The position numbers and the translations under genes were made by a program. DNA of 64,000 nucleotides, from the IMG/VR virus record IMGVR_UViG_3300001202_000001; one strand, 5' to 3'. Of this stretch, positions 7,628 through 53,982 are shown one piece after another (position 1 is the first letter of the stretch; every line of letters begins with the position of its first letter). The notes beneath the pieces were generated by a model. That model had not been told where the DNA came from, did not search any database, and worked only from the letters and a program-made list of their open reading frames with translations. The stretch is from a virus.

Positions 7628-10600
7628 TAGTTCATCGCGTGTTTAATTAGCTTCTTAGTTTGTCCACCAGTAGCAATATCCTGTCCGATAACATGTAGAA
7701 TATCATCAGGGCCAAGCTGTGGTTTTTCCTCTGGAGCCATAACGTAAACATTTACCTCTTGGCTCTTACCATCTGGTAAGACCATGCTCTGTACCGTATC
7801 AGGTTTAAGAGCGGCACTACCTAGCGCATTCATTGCGTATAACTTATCCTTACCAATGCTGTCTACTGCTGATTTACGCATCATAAATTCACCAGCCTCT
7901 GCCATAATAGGAACATGGTCTCTGCCAGTGACTCCAAGGTTAGGGATTCGTCCCCCACCAGAGAACCCTTTAATAGCTCCACCACCAGAGAATGTTTGAG
8001 GGCTGAAACCGAAGGCTGCGAAAAGTTGTTTGATAGCGAAAATAGCAACTTGCTCTGCAAGAATTTTCAAGATAGCTTTCAAGATAGACTCTGCCATATC
8101 TCCAAATGCCTCGCCTACAGATTTAGCTCCAGTCGCAATATCAAAGAACGCATCCCCTAGAGAGTCAGTAGCAACATCTCCTACCTCTACAACCTTATCG
8201 GCAAAGTTGTCTGATGATAGAGAGGCTTCCTCTAACTTATCAATGTAGGCTTGAAGCCCTTCGTTCAGTGCTTCTGTCCAGTTATACATATCAGGAGCAG
8301 CTTCTCCAGTAACAGCACCAATCTCTCTCTGCAAATCTCTGATGCGTTTTTGAGATTCAATAATTTCATCTGCTTTAGCAGTAATTTCACCATCAATTTC
8401 AAGACCTTGGGCTTTCAACTGATTGATTTCTCTACTAGCTTGCTTCATTTCATCAGGGCTATAGTTGCCACCAGTGTTAGCAAGGATTTCTTCTGCTCTG
8501 CGTAGCTTAGCATCAATGTCAGCTTTAGAAGCCTCAAGAGCCGCTTGGTCAGCAGTTAGTCTAGCGAGGTTATCTGTCTTCAATAAGTCCAGTTCAGTAC
8601 GCATAGCTTTTACTTGTGCATTCTGAATTTCCCTATCAAGATTATCTTTATGAACCTGACTGAACTTACCTTTATTACTGGCGGCATCTGTTGCATCACG
8701 AGCGGCTTGTAGGTCAGCCACGGGGTTCTGTAGAGCTTCAATCTTATCATCAAAAGCCTTGGTTGCCACATCGAATGAGTCCGTTAACTCTTTCAGAGCG
8801 TTACGAATCTGAGGAACTTGTTTCTCTCTAATCTCGGTGTGCATACCATCGAATGAGAGGGCAACCTCTTCTCGTTCAGCTTTGAGAGTAGCATTAAGCT
8901 TCGTCATTTCTAGGTCTAGTAATTCTGTATCACCTGCCAAACGGAAACGTAAGTCCTCACGAGCCGCCAGTTCCTTATCAGACTGTAGCTGTAGAGCACG
9001 TTGCTTAGCTGCCTCGATTTCATTAAGTGAACTTCTCTTGGTAACTCTTTTACGCTCAAGAGCAATTTCTTTCTCAAGTTGAATCTCAAGAGACTCATAG
9101 GAAATCTTACGAGTTCTGATTTCCTTCTCAAGACTCAACTTATCCAGAGCAGCAATAACCTTTTCTCTTTCTAGGCGTAGGGAAGTAGCGAAGGTTGCTT
9201 CTGCAATCTCTCTTTCTTTGCCGTGCTTTCCTTCCCTATCTAAACGAGAAGTTTCTTGGGAAAGGGCAGCTTCTTGTTTCTCTGCCAGTCTTTCTAGGAT
9301 AGCTGCTCTACCTTGAGCAATTACATTTTCTGAATCTTTAACATCAAGAGACCTGCGGATTAAATCAATCTCACGCTGGCGGTTAGCTTGCTGTAGCTTG
9401 AATCCAGCATCAAATTCCCTTAACTGTTGGTCAGTCATTTTAACCGCAGCTTCTGCGCGAGATAATAAAGCTGCACCTGTTTGGGATAGGCCAGATGCTG
9501 CAAACTCACGCTCTTGGCCAGTTGCTTTGAACTTAGCGGTATCAGCATAACCTTCTGGAAGTGGAAGGTCTTTGTTAGTGAAGTTACTTCTATCACTCTT
9601 GGCTTTAGCAAGTTGTTGGTCTAATGAAATCAAAATAGACCGAGAAGCAGAAGCTTCATCACTACTGTTAAAGGTATTTTGGGTTACCTCACGTTTTTGC
9701 CCTGCAATAGATTGTGTGGTTTGAACAACAGGTAGGAACTTACTGGTGAACTCTTGCAAGTATCTATTTTGAGCATTGATAACAGCTTGAGCATCGGCAA
9801 TATCTTCTTCACGAGTTGTGTTATCTTGGAAACGGAAGCCGAAGTTAGAGTTTCTACCTTCTTCAATTCTTTCATTTAGCAGAGCTTCATCCTTTGGAGA
9901 CAACACTCCATTTTGCATAGCAAGTGTAAGTCTGTTGTTGTCAGCTTGAATTTTAGTCACTGCTCTGTAGAGTTCTAGGATTCCAGTATCGTTGAGCTTA
10001 CCATTATCAAATTGTCTTGCTTGTCCAACAATATCGCTGTCGAAACCAAAAGGTGATAACGTAGAAGACCTGCGGAAACCTCCATAAGCATCCTTCGGAA
10101 GGACACCAGCTAGTTTCCTACGAGCCTGTTTGGCTTGTCCTTCAAGTAGTCTTGTAGATTCATCAATGCTGGTGTTAAGTTCTACGTTACGCACGTCTAA
10201 CATAACATCACGAAGACGCTCTAACTCTGGAACTAGGTCTTGAATTTTACCATTCGTGAAATCAAATGAACCCCCAAGGTCTCCAAACTTTAATTGTAAC
10301 TCAAGGGCGATGTTATTCACCTCTTGCATACTCTCCCCAGCTTCAAAGTGACGTTGGGTAAGAATTTCAATCTCTTTGTCGATTGACCTGATGTTAGCGG
10401 TGTAAGTTTCAAGCTTACCTGAGCTTTCATCAACAGATGCTTTTAGTTCATCGACGCTCTCTGAGAAGAAATCAATACCGATTTTAGCCAAGCCAATAAC
10501 CGCTGTGATAGCTGCGATACCCCCACCAACTGGCCCCATAGCTACGAGTAAGCCTTTGTAACCTAACCCTGCGGCACGAGTGGCCGCTGCCTCTCCTAGT

Positions 10601-26491: not shown

Positions 26492-26511
26492 GTATATGCC
26501 GTGGGTATAAA
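26483..26511 (+). promoter_or_regulatory. Sigma70-like early promoter TTGACT-17-TATAAA
   Basis: -35 at 26483-26488 and -10 at 26506-26511 with an exact 17-nt spacer. The -10 lies within the shared motif GTGGGTATAAA. AAGGAG RBS at 26522-26527 and ATG at 26534. Confidence 0.6.
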
Positions 26512-30344: not shown

Positions 30345-30770
30345 ATGTTTATGAACCAAGGTGTGGATTACACGTTCACAGGACGACAGGTTAGGGGCCG
30401 ACGCCAGATTATACTCCTCCGAGACATTGATTTCGGGGTTTTCGTGGTTCCCAAGGGCTTTTTATGTGACGGAGCCTCAATCCCAGCATTTGCAGACAAT
30501 TTATTCGGATTAGACCCTCTAAGACGTGAATATCTTGGTGCAGCTATTGCACATGACTATGCGTATTCGTCTAAGTGGGGGTCGAGGTGGGAGTGTGACA
30601 AATTATTCTCCCTTCTTATCTGGTATGGGTCAAAACGGGTGTTGAGGTTCGCTTTTGCCCCGATTATGCTGTTTTCGGTCAGAATTGGTGGTTTTGAGGG
30701 CTATTATGCAGAAAACCGCTCATTATTGAGCTATTATTGGTCAAAAGTGCGTGAAATCGCTCACATTTGA
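30345..30770 (+). CDS. DUF1353-like protein
   Basis: FVVPKGFLCDGASIPAFA...AAIAHDYAY pattern. The track start 30291 (TTG) overlaps a TTGACA word, so the first ATG 30345 is used. Start is uncertain. Confidence 0.55.
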   Translation: MFMNQGVDYTFTGRQVRGRRQIILLRDIDFGVFVVPKGFLCDGASIPAFADNLFGLDPLRREYLGAAIAHDYAYSSKWGSRWECDKLFSLLIWYGSKRVLRFAFAPIMLFSVRIGGFEGYYAENRSLLSYYWSKVREIAHI

Positions 30771-31081
30771 GCATTTAATCGCCAAGAAGACCTCCACGCC
30801 CATTGATGCGCCCTCAATAACATACGTTCATCCTCTAACATGTTGGTTAAACCCTCCGTACCATTGGTTCTAAGGCCATAAATGTCGTAGACCTTATCTC
30901 CAATCTTAGTCCACACATGGTCAATGTTTGTCCAAGGCTCTGCGTCAGGCCAGATTGTCTTGAGGATTCTGTAAAGTTCGAAGCAACTACCTTGTGTATA
31001 AACGTGGGTTGAGTCTGCGAAGCTAGTTCTAATAGCTCCGATTACTTCTAAAGGGTCGATGTGGTGAAAGTCTTTTGTCAT
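30761..31081 (-). CDS. Hypothetical protein, lone minus-strand gene in the early arm
   Basis: 106 aa ORF with an ATG start, convergent with the DUF1353-like gene (10-nt overlap). Confidence 0.55.
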   Translation of the reverse strand: MTKDFHHIDPLEVIGAIRTSFADSTHVYTQGSCFELYRILKTIWPDAEPWTNIDHVWTKIGDKVYDIYGLRTNGTEGLTNMLEDERMLLRAHQWAWRSSWRLNAQM

Positions 31082-31442
31082 AGGTTAGCACTAAAAGTGG
31101 GAAAGAAGGATTTTAGTTTACCTCCAACTCAGTTCACGATACTTTCATATCTGTTTAACCTGAGAGCCAGACTAAAACCACTACAGTTCGAACCTCAAAC
31201 ACTTGTTCGTTGGTTCAGAGAGCTATCTCATTAGCCTACCAGCATATCCCTCGCGAAAAGGATTATTAGCTGCATTTCCATGTCTCCCCGCTAAGGGCTA
31301 CATTTATGTCTTTACTACGGGTACAAAGGGTTGTCAACACCCAAAGTGAATTATTTGCGCGAAATGTATAGTAGGATGTGCGTGAGATGTACATTAGACA
31401 GGTGTTAGTGGCTGTTTTCTGCAAAACAGGCGTAAAAGGCTG

Positions 31443-31455
31443 TTGGGTATAAATC
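31443..31455 (+). promoter_or_regulatory. GTTGGGTATAAAT promoter-like motif (no recognisable -35)
   Basis: Same extended word as at 26501, 49988 and 53929. Located in the ORF-free region, about 340 nt upstream of ATG 31795. Confidence 0.35.
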
Positions 31456-31622
31456 AGCTTTTCGAAAAATTATAAACTACCGAGTGGCAACAGGTGTGGC
31501 GCTACACTACCACATACACCAATAAAGTGTGCTACCCTTCAACGCAATCCAAGTGAGAGTGGAAGTGTTAGTGGAACATAAGCAGAACATAACATTACGC
31601 ATTTGTAATAAATATATGCTTC

Positions 31623-31635
31623 TATTTATACCCAT
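31623..31635 (-). promoter_or_regulatory. ATGGGTATAAATA motif on the minus strand
   Basis: Reverse complement of TATTTATACCCAT. The only minus-strand copy of GGGTATAAA that I saw. Confidence 0.25.
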
Positions 31636-31654
31636 AATCATGCTAAGAATAGGT

Positions 31655-31741
31655 ATAGCCAAGGGGTTAGCCCTTGCTATCAAGCCTCACATATAGGGCT
31701 TGTGCTACACACTGTAGCAAGCGGATAAGTGTGTCTTATCC
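31655..31741 (+). other. Array of four abutting stem-loops
   Basis: H1 31655-31680 (10 bp plus a bulge), H2 31681-31702 (6 bp), H3 31703-31719 (7 bp), H4 31723-31741 (7 bp). All pairs were checked by hand. H4 contains TTATCCACT (31736-31744). Confidence 0.6.
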
Positions 31742-31752
31742 ACTAATCATAA

Positions 31753-31770
31753 TAGTCCTAGCTAGGACTA
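31753..31770. repeat. Palindrome family copy 1: TAGTCCTAGCTAGGACTA
   Basis: Perfect 18-nt palindrome, 24 nt upstream of ATG 31795. Confidence 0.9.
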
Positions 31771-31794
31771 AGACAAAAGAAAAGAGTTTTCACA

Positions 31795-32526
31795 ATGTCA
31801 AAAACAATTAAAGCAATCACAAGCCAAGCCGCTACCACATACGCAACGGATAACATCATTCCAGTATTAGAAGCCCTTGCAACCTTAGACGCTAGCACAC
31901 AAACACAAAACAAATTGCTAGCATACCACGTCTTTGAAACGTCCCTGCTAGCAGGTGATGAAAAGATTAACCATGCAATGATTGAAAAGTCTATTAACCG
32001 CACGTTTGACAAGCGCGTCACTAATAAGGGCTTGAAAGTTGCAACCTATGTTAAAGACGCTAAGCCAGCGGCCAATGGTGTTATATACACCGCTGAACAA
32101 TTCCAAGGCGATAACCCTGAATTGCATGTAATGACTGTATATGGCCATATTGCCGCCTATGAGACAGAGCAACGCAAAACAAAAACAGACACTAAGTCAG
32201 TTGTTGAACAAGCCCTTGCCGCTAGTGGTTTACCTATCGAATTAGCTGATAAGCAAATCAAGTTGGCACAAGATGGGAATGACGCCGCTATGTCTTTTGT
32301 TAAAAATGCGTCTGAAAAGTTTACCCCTGCACAAAAGGTTAGTGCTAGTGGTAGTGAAACACAAGCCACGCCGCAAGATACGCTAACAGCCGCGCTTGAT
32401 GTGCTAATTGACATGGTTACTAATGGCGATGCTACACAGGCTCACCAGTGGATTGAACAAGCGGGGGAGTTAATAGGTACTTGGACTGTTACAGAGCAAG
32501 AAACACCTATTGCACAAGCCGCATAG
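31795..32526 (+). CDS. Hypothetical protein
   Basis: 243 aa ORF with an ATG start. Its stop TAG overlaps palindrome copy 2. Confidence 0.7.
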   Translation: MSKTIKAITSQAATTYATDNIIPVLEALATLDASTQTQNKLLAYHVFETSLLAGDEKINHAMIEKSINRTFDKRVTNKGLKVATYVKDAKPAANGVIYTAEQFQGDNPELHVMTVYGHIAAYETEQRKTKTDTKSVVEQALAASGLPIELADKQIKLAQDGNDAAMSFVKNASEKFTPAQKVSASGSETQATPQDTLTAALDVLIDMVTNGDATQAHQWIEQAGELIGTWTVTEQETPIAQAA

Positions 32527-32540
32527 TCCTAACTAGGACT
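32525..32540. repeat. Palindrome family copy 2: AGTCCTAACTAGGACT
   Basis: 6-bp arms around AACT. Overlaps the stop codon at 32524-32526. Confidence 0.9.
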
Positions 32541-32554
32541 TTACGAAATACTAT

Positions 32555-32570
32555 CACGGCTTAGGCCGTG
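32555..32570 (+). other. Small hairpin CACGGC-TTAG-GCCGTG
   Basis: 6-bp stem and 4-nt loop, 29 nt after the stop of 31795..32526. No U-tract. Confidence 0.3.
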
Positions 32571-32669
32571 GTAGTGGAAGTCGCACTCTTCTACAGAGTG
32601 CCTCCCCAAACTCGCCCCTTAAAGAGCGCGACTTCCATAAATCCGCGACTTTTTCAGAAAGCTAGTATT

Positions 32670-33395: not shown

Positions 33396-33712
33396 AGAGA
33401 CCACTTTCACAACCTTTGGGTGTAAATAAAAGTGTTTGACAACCTGACCACTGAAAACCGTTGTAAACCAATGGGTTAACTTGCAAAGACTCGTGAAAAT
33501 TGTTCATTTTACCCTAAATAAGTGTTGGATATATGTTTGTATATTTTTCTCTATTTCTAAGTAATGGAAAAAATAGTAATATATAGATTACAGTATTTTA
33601 TATAATATAGAAATCACTAGGGTCGTACCAACACTTTTAAATCGGCTAAGCTATTGAAATCATTGGCCCGAACCCAAATAACAAACACTTTTTGAAATGG
33701 AGTTTTATACCC

Positions 33713-33874
33713 ATGTCCGAAGCCCAAATTAAAATACTGTTAGAAAACAATGAGTTAGACTTACTCATAGTTTTACTAAAGAACGCATACGGCAGAGCAG
33801 TCTTAAATCCCAAGAAAGCCCAACGTATTTCACGCCTACTAAGTAAACTGTATCAACTCAAGAAAACAGGATAG
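33713..33874 (+). CDS. Small hypothetical protein
   Basis: MSEAQIKILLENNELDLL... from the first ATG. The track start 33692 is TTG. Confidence 0.45.
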   Translation: MSEAQIKILLENNELDLLIVLLKNAYGRAVLNPKKAQRISRLLSKLYQLKKTG

Positions 33875-49973: not shown

Positions 49974-49998
49974 CAAGAATACCTTCGTTGGGTATAAA
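49970..49998 (+). promoter_or_regulatory. Sigma70-like promoter TTGACA-17-TATAAA
   Basis: -35 at 49970-49975 (overlapping the stop of the upstream gene). -10 at 49993-49998 within GTTGGGTATAAAT. 80 nt upstream of the KTSC gene. Confidence 0.6.
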
Positions 49999-50077
49999 TG
50001 AAAAGTTGAAAAATTTTTCAGAAAAGGGGAGCGACTTTTCAACGCTCACAAACAGAAACATAAATGGAGAAAATAAC

Positions 50078-53911: not shown

Positions 53912-53934
53912 CCCACGGCGTTACGCGCCGTGGG
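53912..53934 (+). terminator. GC-rich hairpin CCCACGGCG-TTACG-CGCCGTGGG
   Basis: 9-bp perfect stem, 26 nt after the stop at 53886. Its 3' arm merges into the GGGTATAAAT motif. Confidence 0.5.
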
Positions 53935-53941
53935 TATAAAT
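53929..53941 (+). promoter_or_regulatory. CGTGGGTATAAAT promoter-like motif
   Basis: Shares the word with 26501, 31443 and 49988. 42 nt upstream of the ligase ATG. No -35 hexamer. Confidence 0.35.
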
Positions 53942-53982
53942 TTGGATAGAAAAAATTTTTAAAAATATGAAAGGACGTTGCT

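What the first reader, a model, noticed from the sequence alone, without database searches (positions are those of the whole stretch)
31082..31794. Roughly 710-nt ORF-free region ending in a tight array of stem-loops
No ORF of 60 aa or more and no convincing small ORF lies between the leftward gene (30761..31081) and ATG 31795. A GTTGGGTATAAAT promoter-like word (31443-31455) would drive a leader or ncRNA of about 330 nt.

The last 120 nt are almost entirely self-complementary. Four abutting hairpins occupy 31655-31680, 31681-31702, 31703-31719 and 31723-31741. They are followed by palindrome copy 1 at 31753-31770. Hairpin 4 contains TTATCCACT (31736-31744), an 8/9 match to the DnaA box TTATCCACA as I recall it.

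The region also holds a minus-strand GGGTATAAA word at 31625-31633. Candidate roles are a structured regulatory RNA or leader, a replication origin, or a bidirectional control region for the only leftward early gene.
Basis: partly seen in the sequence, partly recalled or inferred. Interest (0 to 1): 0.62.

Follow-up and report, generated by a model that had tools for sequence, protein, structure and literature searches.

The report
Two structured RNA leaders, back to back
This gene-free stretch of an uncultivated ~80-kb phage is a two-way control region: leftward, a divergent copy of the orphan "manA" riboswitch-candidate RNA leads into a small gene, and rightward, a promoter-like box is followed by a previously uncatalogued ~340-base leader folded into hairpins that related phages preserve by compensating mutations.

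Summary
There is no conserved ORF, and all five stem-loops sit at the stated coordinates (z = -4.5).

**Hairpin array.** Seven related phage lineages keep the tandem array although its sequence falls to 44-55% identity. Hairpin 3 pairs in 7 of 7 lineages, with compensatory changes in 3 of its 6 pairs.

**DnaA box.** It is chance. It is the 3' arm of hairpin 4, relatives do not keep it, and such matches are not enriched in the window.

The left third (31095-31302, minus strand) matches Rfam manA (39 bits, below the 55.2-bit cut-off; E = 1.5e-6). It ends 13 nt before the leftward YunG-like gene. A 95-98% identical phage lacks it entirely.

**Best reading.** Two divergent promoters drive two structured leaders:
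- P-left drives the manA-like leader and then the YunG-like gene.
- GGGTATAAAT drives a ~340-nt leader and then the 243-aa gene.

The leader's last hairpin belongs to a palindrome family that punctuates the early genes and is replaced as a set in distant relatives.

**Limits.** Function is inferred (mRNA stability, processing or translation control). This scan has reported similar structured phage leaders and hairpin-punctuated operons in other genomes.

The parts
30761..31081 (-). Leftward gene, 106 aa, Phage_YunG-like (function unknown).
   Evidence: Pfam PF24591 3e-13, PHROG 4814 1.5e-16. There is no Shine-Dalgarno sequence before the ATG.
31095..31302 (-). manA-like structured RNA: the 5' leader of the leftward gene. 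Its 3' end lies 13 nt from the ATG.
   Evidence: Rfam RF01745, 39.1 bits (cut-off 55.2), model positions 1-192 of 192, E = 4e-8 locally and 1.5e-6 for the whole window. A homologous copy in relative L007 scores 52.1 bits. The two copies differ by compensatory changes in three helices, read from the two cmscan alignments.
31098..31330 (.). Block M: a presence/absence cassette holding the manA-like RNA and a -10-like hexamer.
   Evidence: Present in the window and L005. In G001 (95-98% identical flanks) it is replaced by 15 nt. G001, 99% complete, has no manA match anywhere.
31309..31337 (-). Inferred leftward promoter: -35 TTGACA (31337-31332), 17-nt spacer, weak -10 TAAAGA (31314-31309). The predicted start is about 31302.
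   Evidence: Read from the sequence. TTGACA lies in the flank shared by all relatives. The predicted start coincides with the first base of the manA match. The consensus scan did not call it, so this is inference only.
31355..31391 (.). Two copies of a 14-nt direct repeat between the divergent promoters: TTGCGCGAAATGTA (31355-31368) and GTGCGTGAGATGTA (31378-31391).
   Evidence: Read from the sequence. The second copy is better kept in G001 and L005 (GTGCGCGAAATGTG). A role as a regulator binding site is inferred.
31400..31443 (.). Block S: a presence/absence block containing the hairpin CTGTTTTCTGCAAAACAG (31412-31429) and one copy of GTGTTAGTGG.
   Evidence: Present in the window and G001, absent in L005. 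The 10-nt word recurs at 31565-31574.
31443..31455 (+). Promoter-like word GTTGGGTATAAAT, with -10 TATAAA at 31448-31453 and no -35.
   Evidence: GGGTATAAA occurs 6 times against 0.27 expected. The copies at 26503 and 49990 have TTGACT / TTGACA exactly 17 nt upstream of TATAAA. The word is conserved in 7 of 8 lineages.
31464..31477 (+). A5T-rich box GAAAAATTATAAAC just downstream of the -10.
   Evidence: An AAAAATT core is kept in 7 of the 8 lineages; L006 reads ATTTTGG at that position. Similar GAAAAATTTTT boxes follow the GGGTATAAA words at 49990 and 53932. Its role is unknown.
31478..31577 (+). 5' domain of the rightward leader: a small variable hairpin (CUACC...GGU), hairpin A (UACAC 31515-31519 / GUGUG 31527-31531, A-rich 7-nt loop), the conserved single-stranded CUACCCUU (31532-31539), and GTGRRR hexamer repeats (31551-31574).
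   Evidence: Nucleotide identity is 62-68% in all pairs of lineages, equal to or above the adjacent coding gene. Hairpin A is the only helix of this domain that RNAalifold keeps in 7 lineages. Its stem is fully swapped in L008 (ACAC/GUGU to GUGU/ACAU). One search also predicts a GGGUA / UACCC helix, but its 5' arm lies in the promoter-like word upstream of the predicted start and both arms are nearly invariant, so it is set aside.
31578..31652 (+). AU-rich variable linker. It contains ATTTATACCCA (31624-31634), the inverted copy of the promoter word.
   Evidence: This is the least conserved segment (40-66% identity). L007 carries an extra 17-bp hairpin here. The inverted repeat is perfect over 11 nt and is kept in 4 of 7 lineages.
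31655..31741 (+). Four abutting hairpins: H1 31655-31680, H2 31681-31702, H3 31703-31719, H4 31723-31741.
   Evidence: Fold z = -4.5. All 7 lineages fold into the same tandem array, z = -3.7 to -5.4. H3 is 100% paired with 3 of 6 pairs compensatory. H3 and H4 together are 92% paired, covariation 0.564 against 0.239 shuffled, 0 of 500 shuffles as high. The plus strand folds better than the minus strand in 5 of 7 lineages.
31753..31770 (+). H5: the palindromic hairpin TAGTCCTAGCTAGGACTA, a member of a family that punctuates the early genes.
   Evidence: AGTCC-N5-6-GGACT has 6 exact copies in the window against 0.23 expected, placed at gene starts and stops. Distant relatives carry a different palindrome at the same positions: L018 ACTAGSCTAGT three times, L020 GTTTACC-NN-GGTAAAC three times.
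31781..31797 (+). Ribosome-binding region AAAGAG (31781-31786) and the ATG of the 243-aa gene.
   Evidence: AGAAAAGAGTTT is invariant in the closer relatives, including those that lack the hairpins (L013, L014).
31795..32526 (+). The gene served by the leader: 243 aa, all-helical, no recognisable family.
   Evidence: Only 7 protein clusters were found. AlphaFold pLDDT is 75, with no significant fold, Pfam or PDB match.

Best explanation
The 710-nt gap is a divergent control region holding two structured 5' leaders.

**Leftward.** A weak sigma-70-type promoter is inferred: shared -35 TTGACA, with the -10 inside the cassette. Transcription would start at about 31302 and produce a divergent manA-type RNA that runs to 13 nt before the SD-less ATG of the YunG-like gene. 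By analogy with manA RNAs elsewhere, it acts in cis on that gene, as a ligand- or factor-dependent fold next to the start codon. It is an optional cassette.

**Rightward.** The GGGTATAAAT word serves as the -10 of a promoter, with a start near 31460. The transcript carries a ~335-nt untranslated leader made of these parts, in order:
- a conserved 5' hairpin plus the UACCCUU box;
- an AU-rich linker;
- four tandem hairpins;
- a family hairpin (H5);
- the ribosome-binding site of the 243-aa gene.

The hairpins most likely work in the RNA. They could keep the long untranslated leader free of Rho and of 5'-end-dependent decay. H5 could be a recognition or processing point shared with the other gene boundaries. 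Together these would set the stability and translation of the first gene of the accessory early operon.

**Shown:** the sequence features, their conservation, covariation and indel polymorphism.

**Inferred:** both promoters, both transcription starts, and every functional step.
For: **manA-like RNA**
- Full-length match with E = 1.5e-6 for the whole window.
- A second, better copy in L007 at 52.1 bits.
- It lies on the same strand as a gene, immediately upstream of it, in both phages.
- Compensatory differences between the two copies: GGAAA/UUUCC against GGGAC/GUCCC, and UCC/GGA against UGC/GCA.
- The predicted start of TTGACA-17-TAAAGA coincides with model position 1.

**Rightward promoter**
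- The word is 20-fold over-represented.
- Two copies have a perfect -35 at 17 bp, one of them at the terL / early-gene divergence.
- It is conserved in 7 of 8 lineages.

**Rightward leader**
- No conserved ORF.
- The 5' domain is as conserved as the coding gene.
- The tandem hairpins are kept in all 7 lineages although sequence identity is 44-55%.
- RNAalifold finds 12 of 61 pairs with compensatory double changes.
- H3 and H4 counts: 92% paired, 0 of 500 shuffles reach the covariation score, and slid controls give 32-47% paired.
- At least 9 G.U cells, and the plus strand folds better (-354 against -325 kcal/mol summed), point to a single plus strand. This is the sense strand of the downstream gene.
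- L012 turns the H5 palindrome into a non-palindromic hairpin with a G.U pair.
Against: - Both promoters are consensus guesses.
- The 31445 promoter has no -35. P-left has only a 3/6 -10 and was not called by the scan.
- The manA score is below Rfam's gathering cut-off.
- Only 7 lineages exist, some of them mosaic: L005 equals the window in the 5' domain, and L008 equals L005 in the array. Covariation statistics are therefore thin.
- In two lineages the minus strand folds as well as the plus strand.
- G.T pairs are also tolerated in single-stranded DNA, so RNA against ssDNA is not settled.
- More distant homologues of the 243-aa gene (L013, L014) lack the hairpins. A near-identical phage lacks manA. 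Neither element is therefore essential.
Confidence: 0.6

Rival explanations
1. The rightward element is a free-standing non-coding RNA of about 300 nt rather than a leader. It would start at the GGGTATAAAT promoter, end or be cut at H5, and act in trans on host or phage targets. The 243-aa gene would be expressed by read-through.
For: - H5-type hairpins also sit right after stop codons, as if they mark 3' ends.
- The 5' domain is more conserved than the downstream protein in distant pairs.
- Homologues of the 243-aa gene can exist without the hairpins (L013, L014).
Against: - In all 8 lineages that have it, the element directly abuts the ribosome-binding site of the same gene.
- No U-tract follows any hairpin, so there is no intrinsic terminator.
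- It has no Rfam match.
Confidence: 0.15
2. The region is a replication origin or single-strand initiation site. Hexamer repeats and an AT-rich stretch would bind and melt, and the plus-strand hairpins would form in unwound DNA as a loading or priming signal for the phage Prim-Pol/D5-type primase-helicase encoded 2 kb upstream.
For: - GTGRRR hexamer repeats (31551-31574) and GTGTTAGTGG on both sides of the promoter.
- An AT-rich linker.
- L020 has three 27-nt direct repeats just upstream.
- Strand-biased hairpins with G.T pairs are also compatible with ssDNA.
- A P4-family primase gene is nearby.
- The cumulative GC skew has a local maximum at about 30-32 kb.
Against: - The DnaA-box word is chance and is not conserved.
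- The repeats differ between lineages and are absent in L017.
- The array always ends exactly at a ribosome-binding site and follows a promoter-like word.
- The GC-skew feature is dominated by one gene (28-30 kb).
- No initiator-type protein was identified next to it.
Confidence: 0.1
3. The features act as double-stranded DNA sites. The palindromes and the TGGGTATAAAT / ATTTATACCCA inverted repeat would be operators or face-to-face promoters, so that convergent transcription or a repressor loop sets the balance between leftward and rightward expression. The hairpin potential would be incidental.
For: - An 11-nt perfect inverted repeat 169 nt apart, kept in 4 lineages.
- In L006 both arms changed together.
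- H5 is a perfect 18-nt palindrome with an invariant outer sequence in the closer relatives.
- Direct repeats lie between the divergent promoters.
Against: - H1-H4 change sequence freely while keeping pairing, with G.U pairs. Protein operators do not do this.
- H5 copies have 5- or 6-nt centres and become non-palindromic in L012 and L020.
- The minus-strand word lacks a -35 and the A5T box, and it is missing in L018 and L020.
Confidence: 0.07

Closest known systems
manA RNA motif (Rfam RF01745; Weinberg et al. 2010, PMC2864571)
   Same: - Full-length alignment to the multi-stem consensus.
- Conserved AAUAA, UA-GGUG, UG-GGUAA and UCCCAC(U)UU blocks.
- It sits directly upstream of a gene on the same strand.
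- It is carried by phages.
   Different: - It scores below the family cut-off (39 and 52 bits against 55.2).
- The carrier is not a T4-like cyanophage. It is an ~80-kb phage whose nearest named relatives by terminase infect Achromobacter, Pseudoalteromonas, Caulobacter and Acinetobacter.
- The downstream genes (a YunG-like protein; in L007 an 82-aa membrane protein) are not among those the paper lists (mannose/fructose metabolism, nucleotide synthesis, ibpA, photosynthesis).
- It is an indel cassette that a 95-98% identical phage lacks.
Structured 5' leaders and intercistronic hairpins of phage early mRNAs (T7 RNase III R-sites, the lambda N leader, the SP82 5' stabiliser; from my own knowledge)
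   Same: A promoter-proximal untranslated RNA is packed with hairpins before the first gene of an early operon. Related hairpins recur at gene boundaries.
   Different: Stems are 6-10 bp, too short for classic RNase III sites. No sequence or Rfam similarity exists. The boundary hairpin is lineage-specific and is replaced as a set.
Processive antitermination RNAs near phage early promoters (lambda nut boxA/boxB, HK022 put; from my own knowledge)
   Same: A hairpin with an A-rich loop followed by a conserved pyrimidine-rich single-stranded box lies shortly after an early promoter. Some relatives encode a 17-aa arginine-rich peptide next door.
   Different: - It does not match the boxA or boxB consensus as I recall them (not tested with a tool).
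- The peptide gene is absent from the window, L007, L018 and L020.
- No terminators were found for it to override.
- Nothing was tested.
Structured phage leaders and hairpin-punctuated variable operons reported earlier by this scan (e1-3539566, e1-1123486, e1-1132044)
   Same: A gene-free gap with a promoter-like box and a folded leader kept by compensatory changes. Conserved hairpins lie between genes of a fast-shuffling operon.
   Different: The genomes and sequences differ and no homology has been shown. Those reports are unchecked notes.

Membership tests
manA RNA (RF01745) | Covariance-model score at or above the curated gathering score (55.2 bits). | tested here: not met
   Window 39.1 bits. 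Relative L007 52.1 bits. E-values are nevertheless 1.5e-6 (64-kb search) and 1.3e-12.
manA RNA (RF01745) | The whole consensus architecture is present: P1 hairpin, closing helix of the junction, and internal stems. | tested here: met
   Model positions 1-192 of 192 are aligned without truncation in both copies. The window copy has two non-canonical pairs in P1 and a weak fourth stem.
manA RNA (RF01745) | Helices are supported by compensatory changes. | tested here: inconclusive
   Only two independent copies exist. They differ by double changes in the closing helix (GGAAA/UUUCC against GGGAC/GUCCC) and in the second stem (UCC/GGA against UGC/GCA), read. That is too few sequences for statistics.
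manA RNA (RF01745) | Position in the potential 5' UTR of a gene on the same strand. | tested here: met
   It ends 13 nt before the YunG-like ATG. In L007 it ends 21 nt before an 82-aa ORF.
manA RNA (RF01745) | The proposed pseudoknot and ligand-dependent switching. | not testable with these tools
   The paper itself marks the pseudoknot as uncertain. No ligand is known.
DnaA-dependent origin (oriC / lambda-type) | A cluster of conserved DnaA boxes. | tested here: not met
   There is one 8/9 box. The window has 22 such matches against 17 expected. The box is not kept in L005, L006, L007, L017, L018 or L020.
DnaA-dependent origin (oriC / lambda-type) | An adjacent AT-rich unwinding element and initiator repeats. 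| tested here: inconclusive
   An AT-rich linker (31578-31652) and hexamer repeats exist. They are the least conserved parts.
Sigma-70-type promoter (rightward, 31445) | -10 and -35 hexamers at 16-18 bp. | tested here: inconclusive
   The -10 TATAAA is present with no -35, and the scan did not call it. Sister copies of the same word do have TTGACT / TTGACA at 17 bp.
Intrinsic terminator | A GC-rich hairpin followed by a U-tract on the transcribed strand. | tested here: not met
   On the plus strand no U-tract follows H1-H5. The scan calls only H5 read on the minus strand, with a TATTATGATT tail.
RNase III processing site | A roughly 20-bp or longer double helix. | tested here: not met
   Stems are 6-10 bp.
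GUCCY-hairpin motif (Weinberg 2010) | A short hairpin flanked by GUC and CY. | tested here: not met
   In H5 the GUCCU letters are inside the stem, not flanking it (for the definition, for the sequence).

The most novel reading that the evidence does not exclude
The leader and the gene-boundary palindromes could be parts of one lineage-specific RNA recognition system. A phage-encoded factor would read the family hairpin (AGUCC...GGACU here; a different palindrome, swapped as a whole set, in L018 and L020) to process, protect or anti-terminate the early accessory transcript. The 5' hairpin with its UACCCUU box would be the loading site. In some relatives the neighbouring 17-aa arginine-rich peptide would be the RNA-binding partner, as a minimal N-like system.
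Probability: 0.12. Interest if true: 0.7.

Novelty: new variant of a known kind. Interest (0 to 1): 0.5.

Why it matters
**manA.** It is an orphan riboswitch candidate with no known ligand. Divergent copies outside cyanophages sit in front of new gene types and exist as a natural presence/absence pair in nearly identical phages. That widens the comparative set and offers a ready-made genetic contrast.

**The rightward leader.** It adds an uncatalogued, covariation-supported RNA to the growing set of structured phage leaders. Its last hairpin ties it to a gene-boundary hairpin family that is replaced in concert between lineages. This pattern points to a sequence-specific reader and can be tested.

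**Annotation.** The origin and DnaA-box idea can be dropped.

Tried and rejected
**Known RNA families.** Permissive Rfam scans of the region and of the whole window gave only manA and tRNAs. The relatives L017-L020 gave nothing.

**Named phages.** There was no DNA match for the region or for the manA segment, and no protein match for the 243-aa gene.

**More relatives**
- The IMG/VR scans (protein and DNA-pattern) gave only G001, L005 and L022, which is the L017 lineage; the two JGI metagenome scans gave nothing.
- Three further lineages came only through primase homologues.
- A GTDB genome hit in Pacificibacter (L021) lies in an unrelated context at roughly the chance rate, and I judged it chance.

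**Function of the 243-aa protein.** AlphaFold followed by Foldseek against PDB and BFVD, plus Pfam and PDB sequence searches, gave nothing significant. Scattered DnaA C-terminal-domain hits at E about 1-3 were not backed by Pfam.

**Small conserved ORF in the leader.** Rejected.

**Long CGCUACACU / AGUGUUAGUG helix in the 5' domain.** It was predicted from the close relatives and was not kept once distant lineages were added.

**A GGGUAUAAA / UUUAUACCC RNA helix.** It cannot be reconciled with a start downstream of the -10, so it is left open.

**H2-loop / H4-loop kissing.** CACA with UGUG here, and UGC with GCA in L020; L017 and L018 do not fit.

**Could not be done**
- Whether L006 uses a different promoter word genome-wide: its record is not held.
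Full report
**1. What the window is**

The window is a phage genome segment. Terminase, portal and capsid genes lie on the minus strand up to 26.5 kb. The plus strand then carries a Prim-Pol/D5 primase, rIIA/rIIB, DNA polymerase, helicase, RNA ligase and six tRNAs.

The window's own assembly is not held. The nearest held record is an 80.6-kb, 99%-complete IMG/VR virus, G001, which is 95-98% identical around the finding. By terminase, the nearest named phages are ~80-kb phages of Achromobacter, Pseudoalteromonas, Caulobacter and Acinetobacter, at 37-43% identity. No named phage shares the region's DNA.

**2. The observation**

- The gap holds only ORFs of 45-58 aa. None keeps its frame or boundaries in relatives.
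- RNAfold of 31640-31800 returns the five hairpins exactly as listed, with z = -4.5.
- The array lies about 2.7 SD below the mean folding energy of all 120-nt windows. The gap after the 243-aa gene (32527-32660) is folded even more tightly.
- GGGTATAAA is 20-fold over-represented.
- The plus copy at 31445 and the minus copy at 31625 form an 11-nt perfect inverted repeat.

**3.

A permissive Rfam scan finds manA (RF01745) on the minus strand at 31095-31302. All 192 model positions align, at 39.1 bits against a gathering score of 55.2. E is 4e-8 locally and 1.5e-6 for the whole window. The match ends 13 nt before the ATG of the leftward gene, which is a Phage_YunG-like protein.

Relative L007 carries a better copy (52.1 bits, E = 1.3e-12). 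There it lies after the YunG-like gene and 21 nt before an 82-aa membrane-protein ORF.

The two copies share the consensus blocks. They differ by double, pair-preserving changes in the closing helix (GGAAA/UUUCC against GGGAC/GUCCC) and in the second stem (UCC/GGA against UGC/GCA).

manA is an orphan riboswitch candidate described from marine metagenomes, two gamma-proteobacteria and T4-like cyanophages. It lies upstream of sugar, nucleotide, chaperone and photosynthesis genes (PMC2864571). The present carrier and its downstream genes are new for it. I file it as a probable divergent homologue. It is not a threshold-passing member.

**4. A mosaic of small blocks**

Aligning the window, G001 and L005 shows three discrete presence/absence blocks within 400 nt.

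| Block | Window coordinates | Content | Present in | Absent from |
|---|---|---|---|---|
| M | 31098-31330 | manA cassette | window, L005 | G001 (15 unrelated nt instead) |
| R | between 31399 and 31400 | ~125 nt with a Shine-Dalgarno sequence and a leftward 17-aa arginine-rich ORF | G001, L005, L006, L008, L017 | window |
| S | 31400-31443 | hairpin and GTGTTAGTGG | window, G001 | L005 |

G001 has no manA match anywhere in its genome.

Other relatives place different cargo in the same gap. L006 has an I-TevI-like endonuclease gene; I read leftward small-ORF cargo in the gaps of L017, L018 and L020 from their sequence only (no ORF was called or translated there); and L007 has a lipoprotein, a YunG-like gene, manA and membrane ORFs. 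The gap is therefore an insertion and recombination hot spot. manA is accessory.

**5. The leftward promoter (inferred)**

The minus-strand TTGACA (31337-31332) lies in the flank shared by all relatives.

- In the window it is followed, after 17 nt, by TAAAGA inside the cassette. The predicted start, about 31302, is the first base of the manA match.
- In G001 the same TTGACA is followed, after 17 nt, by TTTAGT, only 8 nt before the ATG. That would give an almost leaderless mRNA.

Both -10 hexamers are weak and the consensus scan did not call them. This step is inference.

**6. The rightward promoter-like word**

The GGGTATAAA copies at 26503 and 49990 have TTGACT / TTGACA exactly 17 nt upstream of TATAAA. 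The 26503 copy sits at the divergence between terL and the first early gene. The word therefore behaves as a -10 region.

The copy at 31445 has no -35. It is followed by an A5T-rich box, as are the copies at 49990 and 53932. The word is kept in 7 of 8 lineages, and the AAAAATT core in 7 of 8 (L006 reads ATTTTGG).

**7. The rightward leader in relatives**

Homologues of the 243-aa gene form only 7 protein clusters. Contigs fetched through them and through primase homologues give these lineages: the window (identical to G001 here), L005, L006, L007, L008, L017 (same lineage as L022), L018 and L020, plus a partial L012.

All lineages keep the same order of parts:
- the promoter word;
- the A5T box;
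- a small variable hairpin;
- hairpin A (UACAC-N7-GUGUG) followed by UACCCUU;
- an AU-rich variable linker;
- four tandem hairpins;
- a palindromic hairpin;
- the ribosome-binding site.

Nucleotide identity between lineages, by segment:

| Segment | Identity |
|---|---|
| 5' domain | 62-68% in every pair |
| Coding gene | 52-68% |
| Linker | 40-66% |
| Hairpin array | down to 44-55% |

Despite that divergence, every lineage's array still folds into tandem hairpins with z = -3.7 to -5.4.

**8. Covariation**

- RNAalifold on the six closer sequences gives 61 pairs, 12 of them with compensatory double changes.
- On a seven-lineage alignment of H2-H4, the structure I wrote for H3 and H4 is 92% paired. 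Seven of 13 pairs have changes on both sides. The covariation score is 0.564 against 0.239 for shuffles (0 of 500 reach it), and slid controls are only 32-47% paired.
- H3 alone is paired in 7 of 7 lineages. Its stem reads GCUACA, GCCUCA, GCCCU, GCUACG, GCUGGA or GCCCCG, each with the matching partner.
- H4 changes from GGAUAAG/CUUAUCC to GGACAAG/CUUGUCC (L017), GUGUAAG/CUUAUAC (L006) and GUAACCC/GGGUUGC (L018).
- G.U cells are frequent, and the plus strand folds better in 5 of 7 lineages (sum -354 against -325 kcal/mol).

The constraint therefore acts on a single plus strand, which is the sense strand of the downstream gene.

The sample is small and partly mosaic, so the statistics are suggestive and do not amount to proof. 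In the 5' domain only hairpin A survives the addition of distant lineages. A longer helix predicted from the close relatives does not survive. One search also predicts a pairing between GGGUA of the promoter-like word and UACCC of the box. I set that helix aside because both arms are nearly invariant and its 5' arm lies upstream of the predicted start.

**9. The DnaA box and the origin idea**

TTATCC is the 3' arm of H4. The following AC, which makes the 8/9 match, exists only in the window and G001. Relatives read TTATCCTTC, TTATACGAA, TTATCCCTT or CTTGTCCCT, or have a wholly different arm. One-mismatch DnaA boxes are at chance frequency in the window (22 against 17 +/- 4).

Hexamer repeats and an AT-rich linker exist, but they are the least conserved parts. 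The array always ends at a ribosome-binding site. I keep an origin or ssDNA priming site as a 10% rival.

**10. H5 and the boundary hairpins**

AGTCC-N5-6-GGACT has six exact copies in the window (0.23 expected). All lie at starts or stops of early plus-strand genes.

- The centre varies in length and sequence.
- L012 has a non-palindromic version with a G.U pair.
- In L018 and L020 the same positions before and after the 243-aa homologue carry a different palindrome, repeated three times in each: ACTAGSCTAGT and GTTTACC-NN-GGTAAAC.

The family is thus a hairpin whose sequence is replaced in concert within a genome. That fits a sequence-specific reader or repeated gene conversion. It fits poorly with a fixed double-stranded operator.

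The gap after the 243-aa gene is a second conserved hairpin array with a covarying stem.

**11. Mechanism**

*Shown:*
- two structured elements on opposite strands, each abutting a start codon;
- conservation with compensatory change;
- modular gain and loss.

*Inferred:*
- divergent promoters;
- a cis-acting manA-type leader controlling an SD-less start;
- a long rightward leader whose hairpins protect it from Rho and from decay;
- an H5 hairpin shared with the other gene boundaries as a processing, protection or recognition point.

None of the hairpins has a U-tract after it, and stems of 6-10 bp are too short for classic RNase III sites. Neither of those two standard mechanisms fits as such.

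The 243-aa protein gave no clue. It is all-helical, with pLDDT 75 and no significant fold, Pfam or PDB match.

**12. Novelty and score**

The manA-like RNA is a new, divergent member of a known orphan family, found in a new carrier and a new gene context. The rightward leader matches no Rfam family and is a new instance of a known kind, the structured phage leader with boundary hairpins. This scan has reported that kind several times in other genomes.

Interest is moderate. The structures are real and conserved, the origin idea is removed, but function remains inferred.

Noticed in passing
L002 1976-2029 (-); L005 2526-2579 (-); L006 1785-1838 (-); L008 2539-2592 (-); L017 9375-9428 (-); absent from the window between 31399 and 31400: A conserved leftward micro-ORF of exactly 17 aa lies behind a GGAGG Shine-Dalgarno sequence. 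It is extremely arginine/lysine-rich: MLKRRYRRRQRRLNRMF, MLKQRYRRAARREARRI, MLKKRKKRVERRKRRSI. It resembles an arginine-rich RNA-binding motif. It is present in five relatives and missing in the window, L007, L018 and L020.
   Followed up: partly
window 32527-32669: The gap after the 243-aa gene is the most tightly folded 120-nt stretch of the window (z = -5.4). It holds the family palindrome overlapping the stop codon, an 11-bp hairpin that covaries in relatives, and a long hairpin. GGAAGTCGC could pair either with GCGACTTCC or with the next GCGACTTTTT, which is an attenuator-like alternative. The box TAAATCNGNGACTTTTT is conserved.
   Followed up: partly
L018 9790, 10541, 10825; L020 10109, 10921, 11082: Distant relatives replace the whole AGTCC...GGACT palindrome family with a different palindrome of their own at the same gene boundaries. 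This is concerted replacement.
   Followed up: partly
window 49990-50030 and 53932-53975; also 31445-31480: Three of the plus-strand GGGTATAAAT words are followed 8-10 nt later by an A5-6/T4-5 box: GAAAAATTTTTC, AGAAAAAATTTTTAAAAAT, GAAAAATTATAAAC. This may be a promoter subclass or an operator.
   Followed up: no
L020 9690-9780: Three direct repeats of about 27 nt (GCTGATAGCGTCCATCCTGTGACTTC) lie immediately upstream of the GGGTATAAAT word in the most distant relative. They look like iterons or activator sites. The TGTGAC / TGGGAC hexamers recur inside its leader.
   Followed up: no
L012 1-19; L017 end at 9866; L012-L014 all start about 100 nt before the gene: Several metagenome contigs break inside or next to the family palindrome. 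L012 begins with a Nextera adapter remnant (AGATGTGTATAAGAGACAG). The palindrome family seems to fragment assemblies.
   Followed up: no
window 33692-33720: The minus-strand GGGTATAAA at 33704 reads TTTTATACCCATG on the plus strand, between a GGAG and the ATG of a small plus-strand ORF. The same TTTATACCCATG string occurs in the leaders of L005 and L008. Its meaning is unknown.
   Followed up: no
L007 2700-2790: L007 carries an extra perfect 17-bp hairpin (TTATTGATAAACGATAA / TTATCGTTTATCAATAA) inserted in the linker of its leader. It also has a CACCUCCUU word identical to the 3' end of 16S rRNA, as I recall that sequence, next to hairpin A.
   Followed up: no
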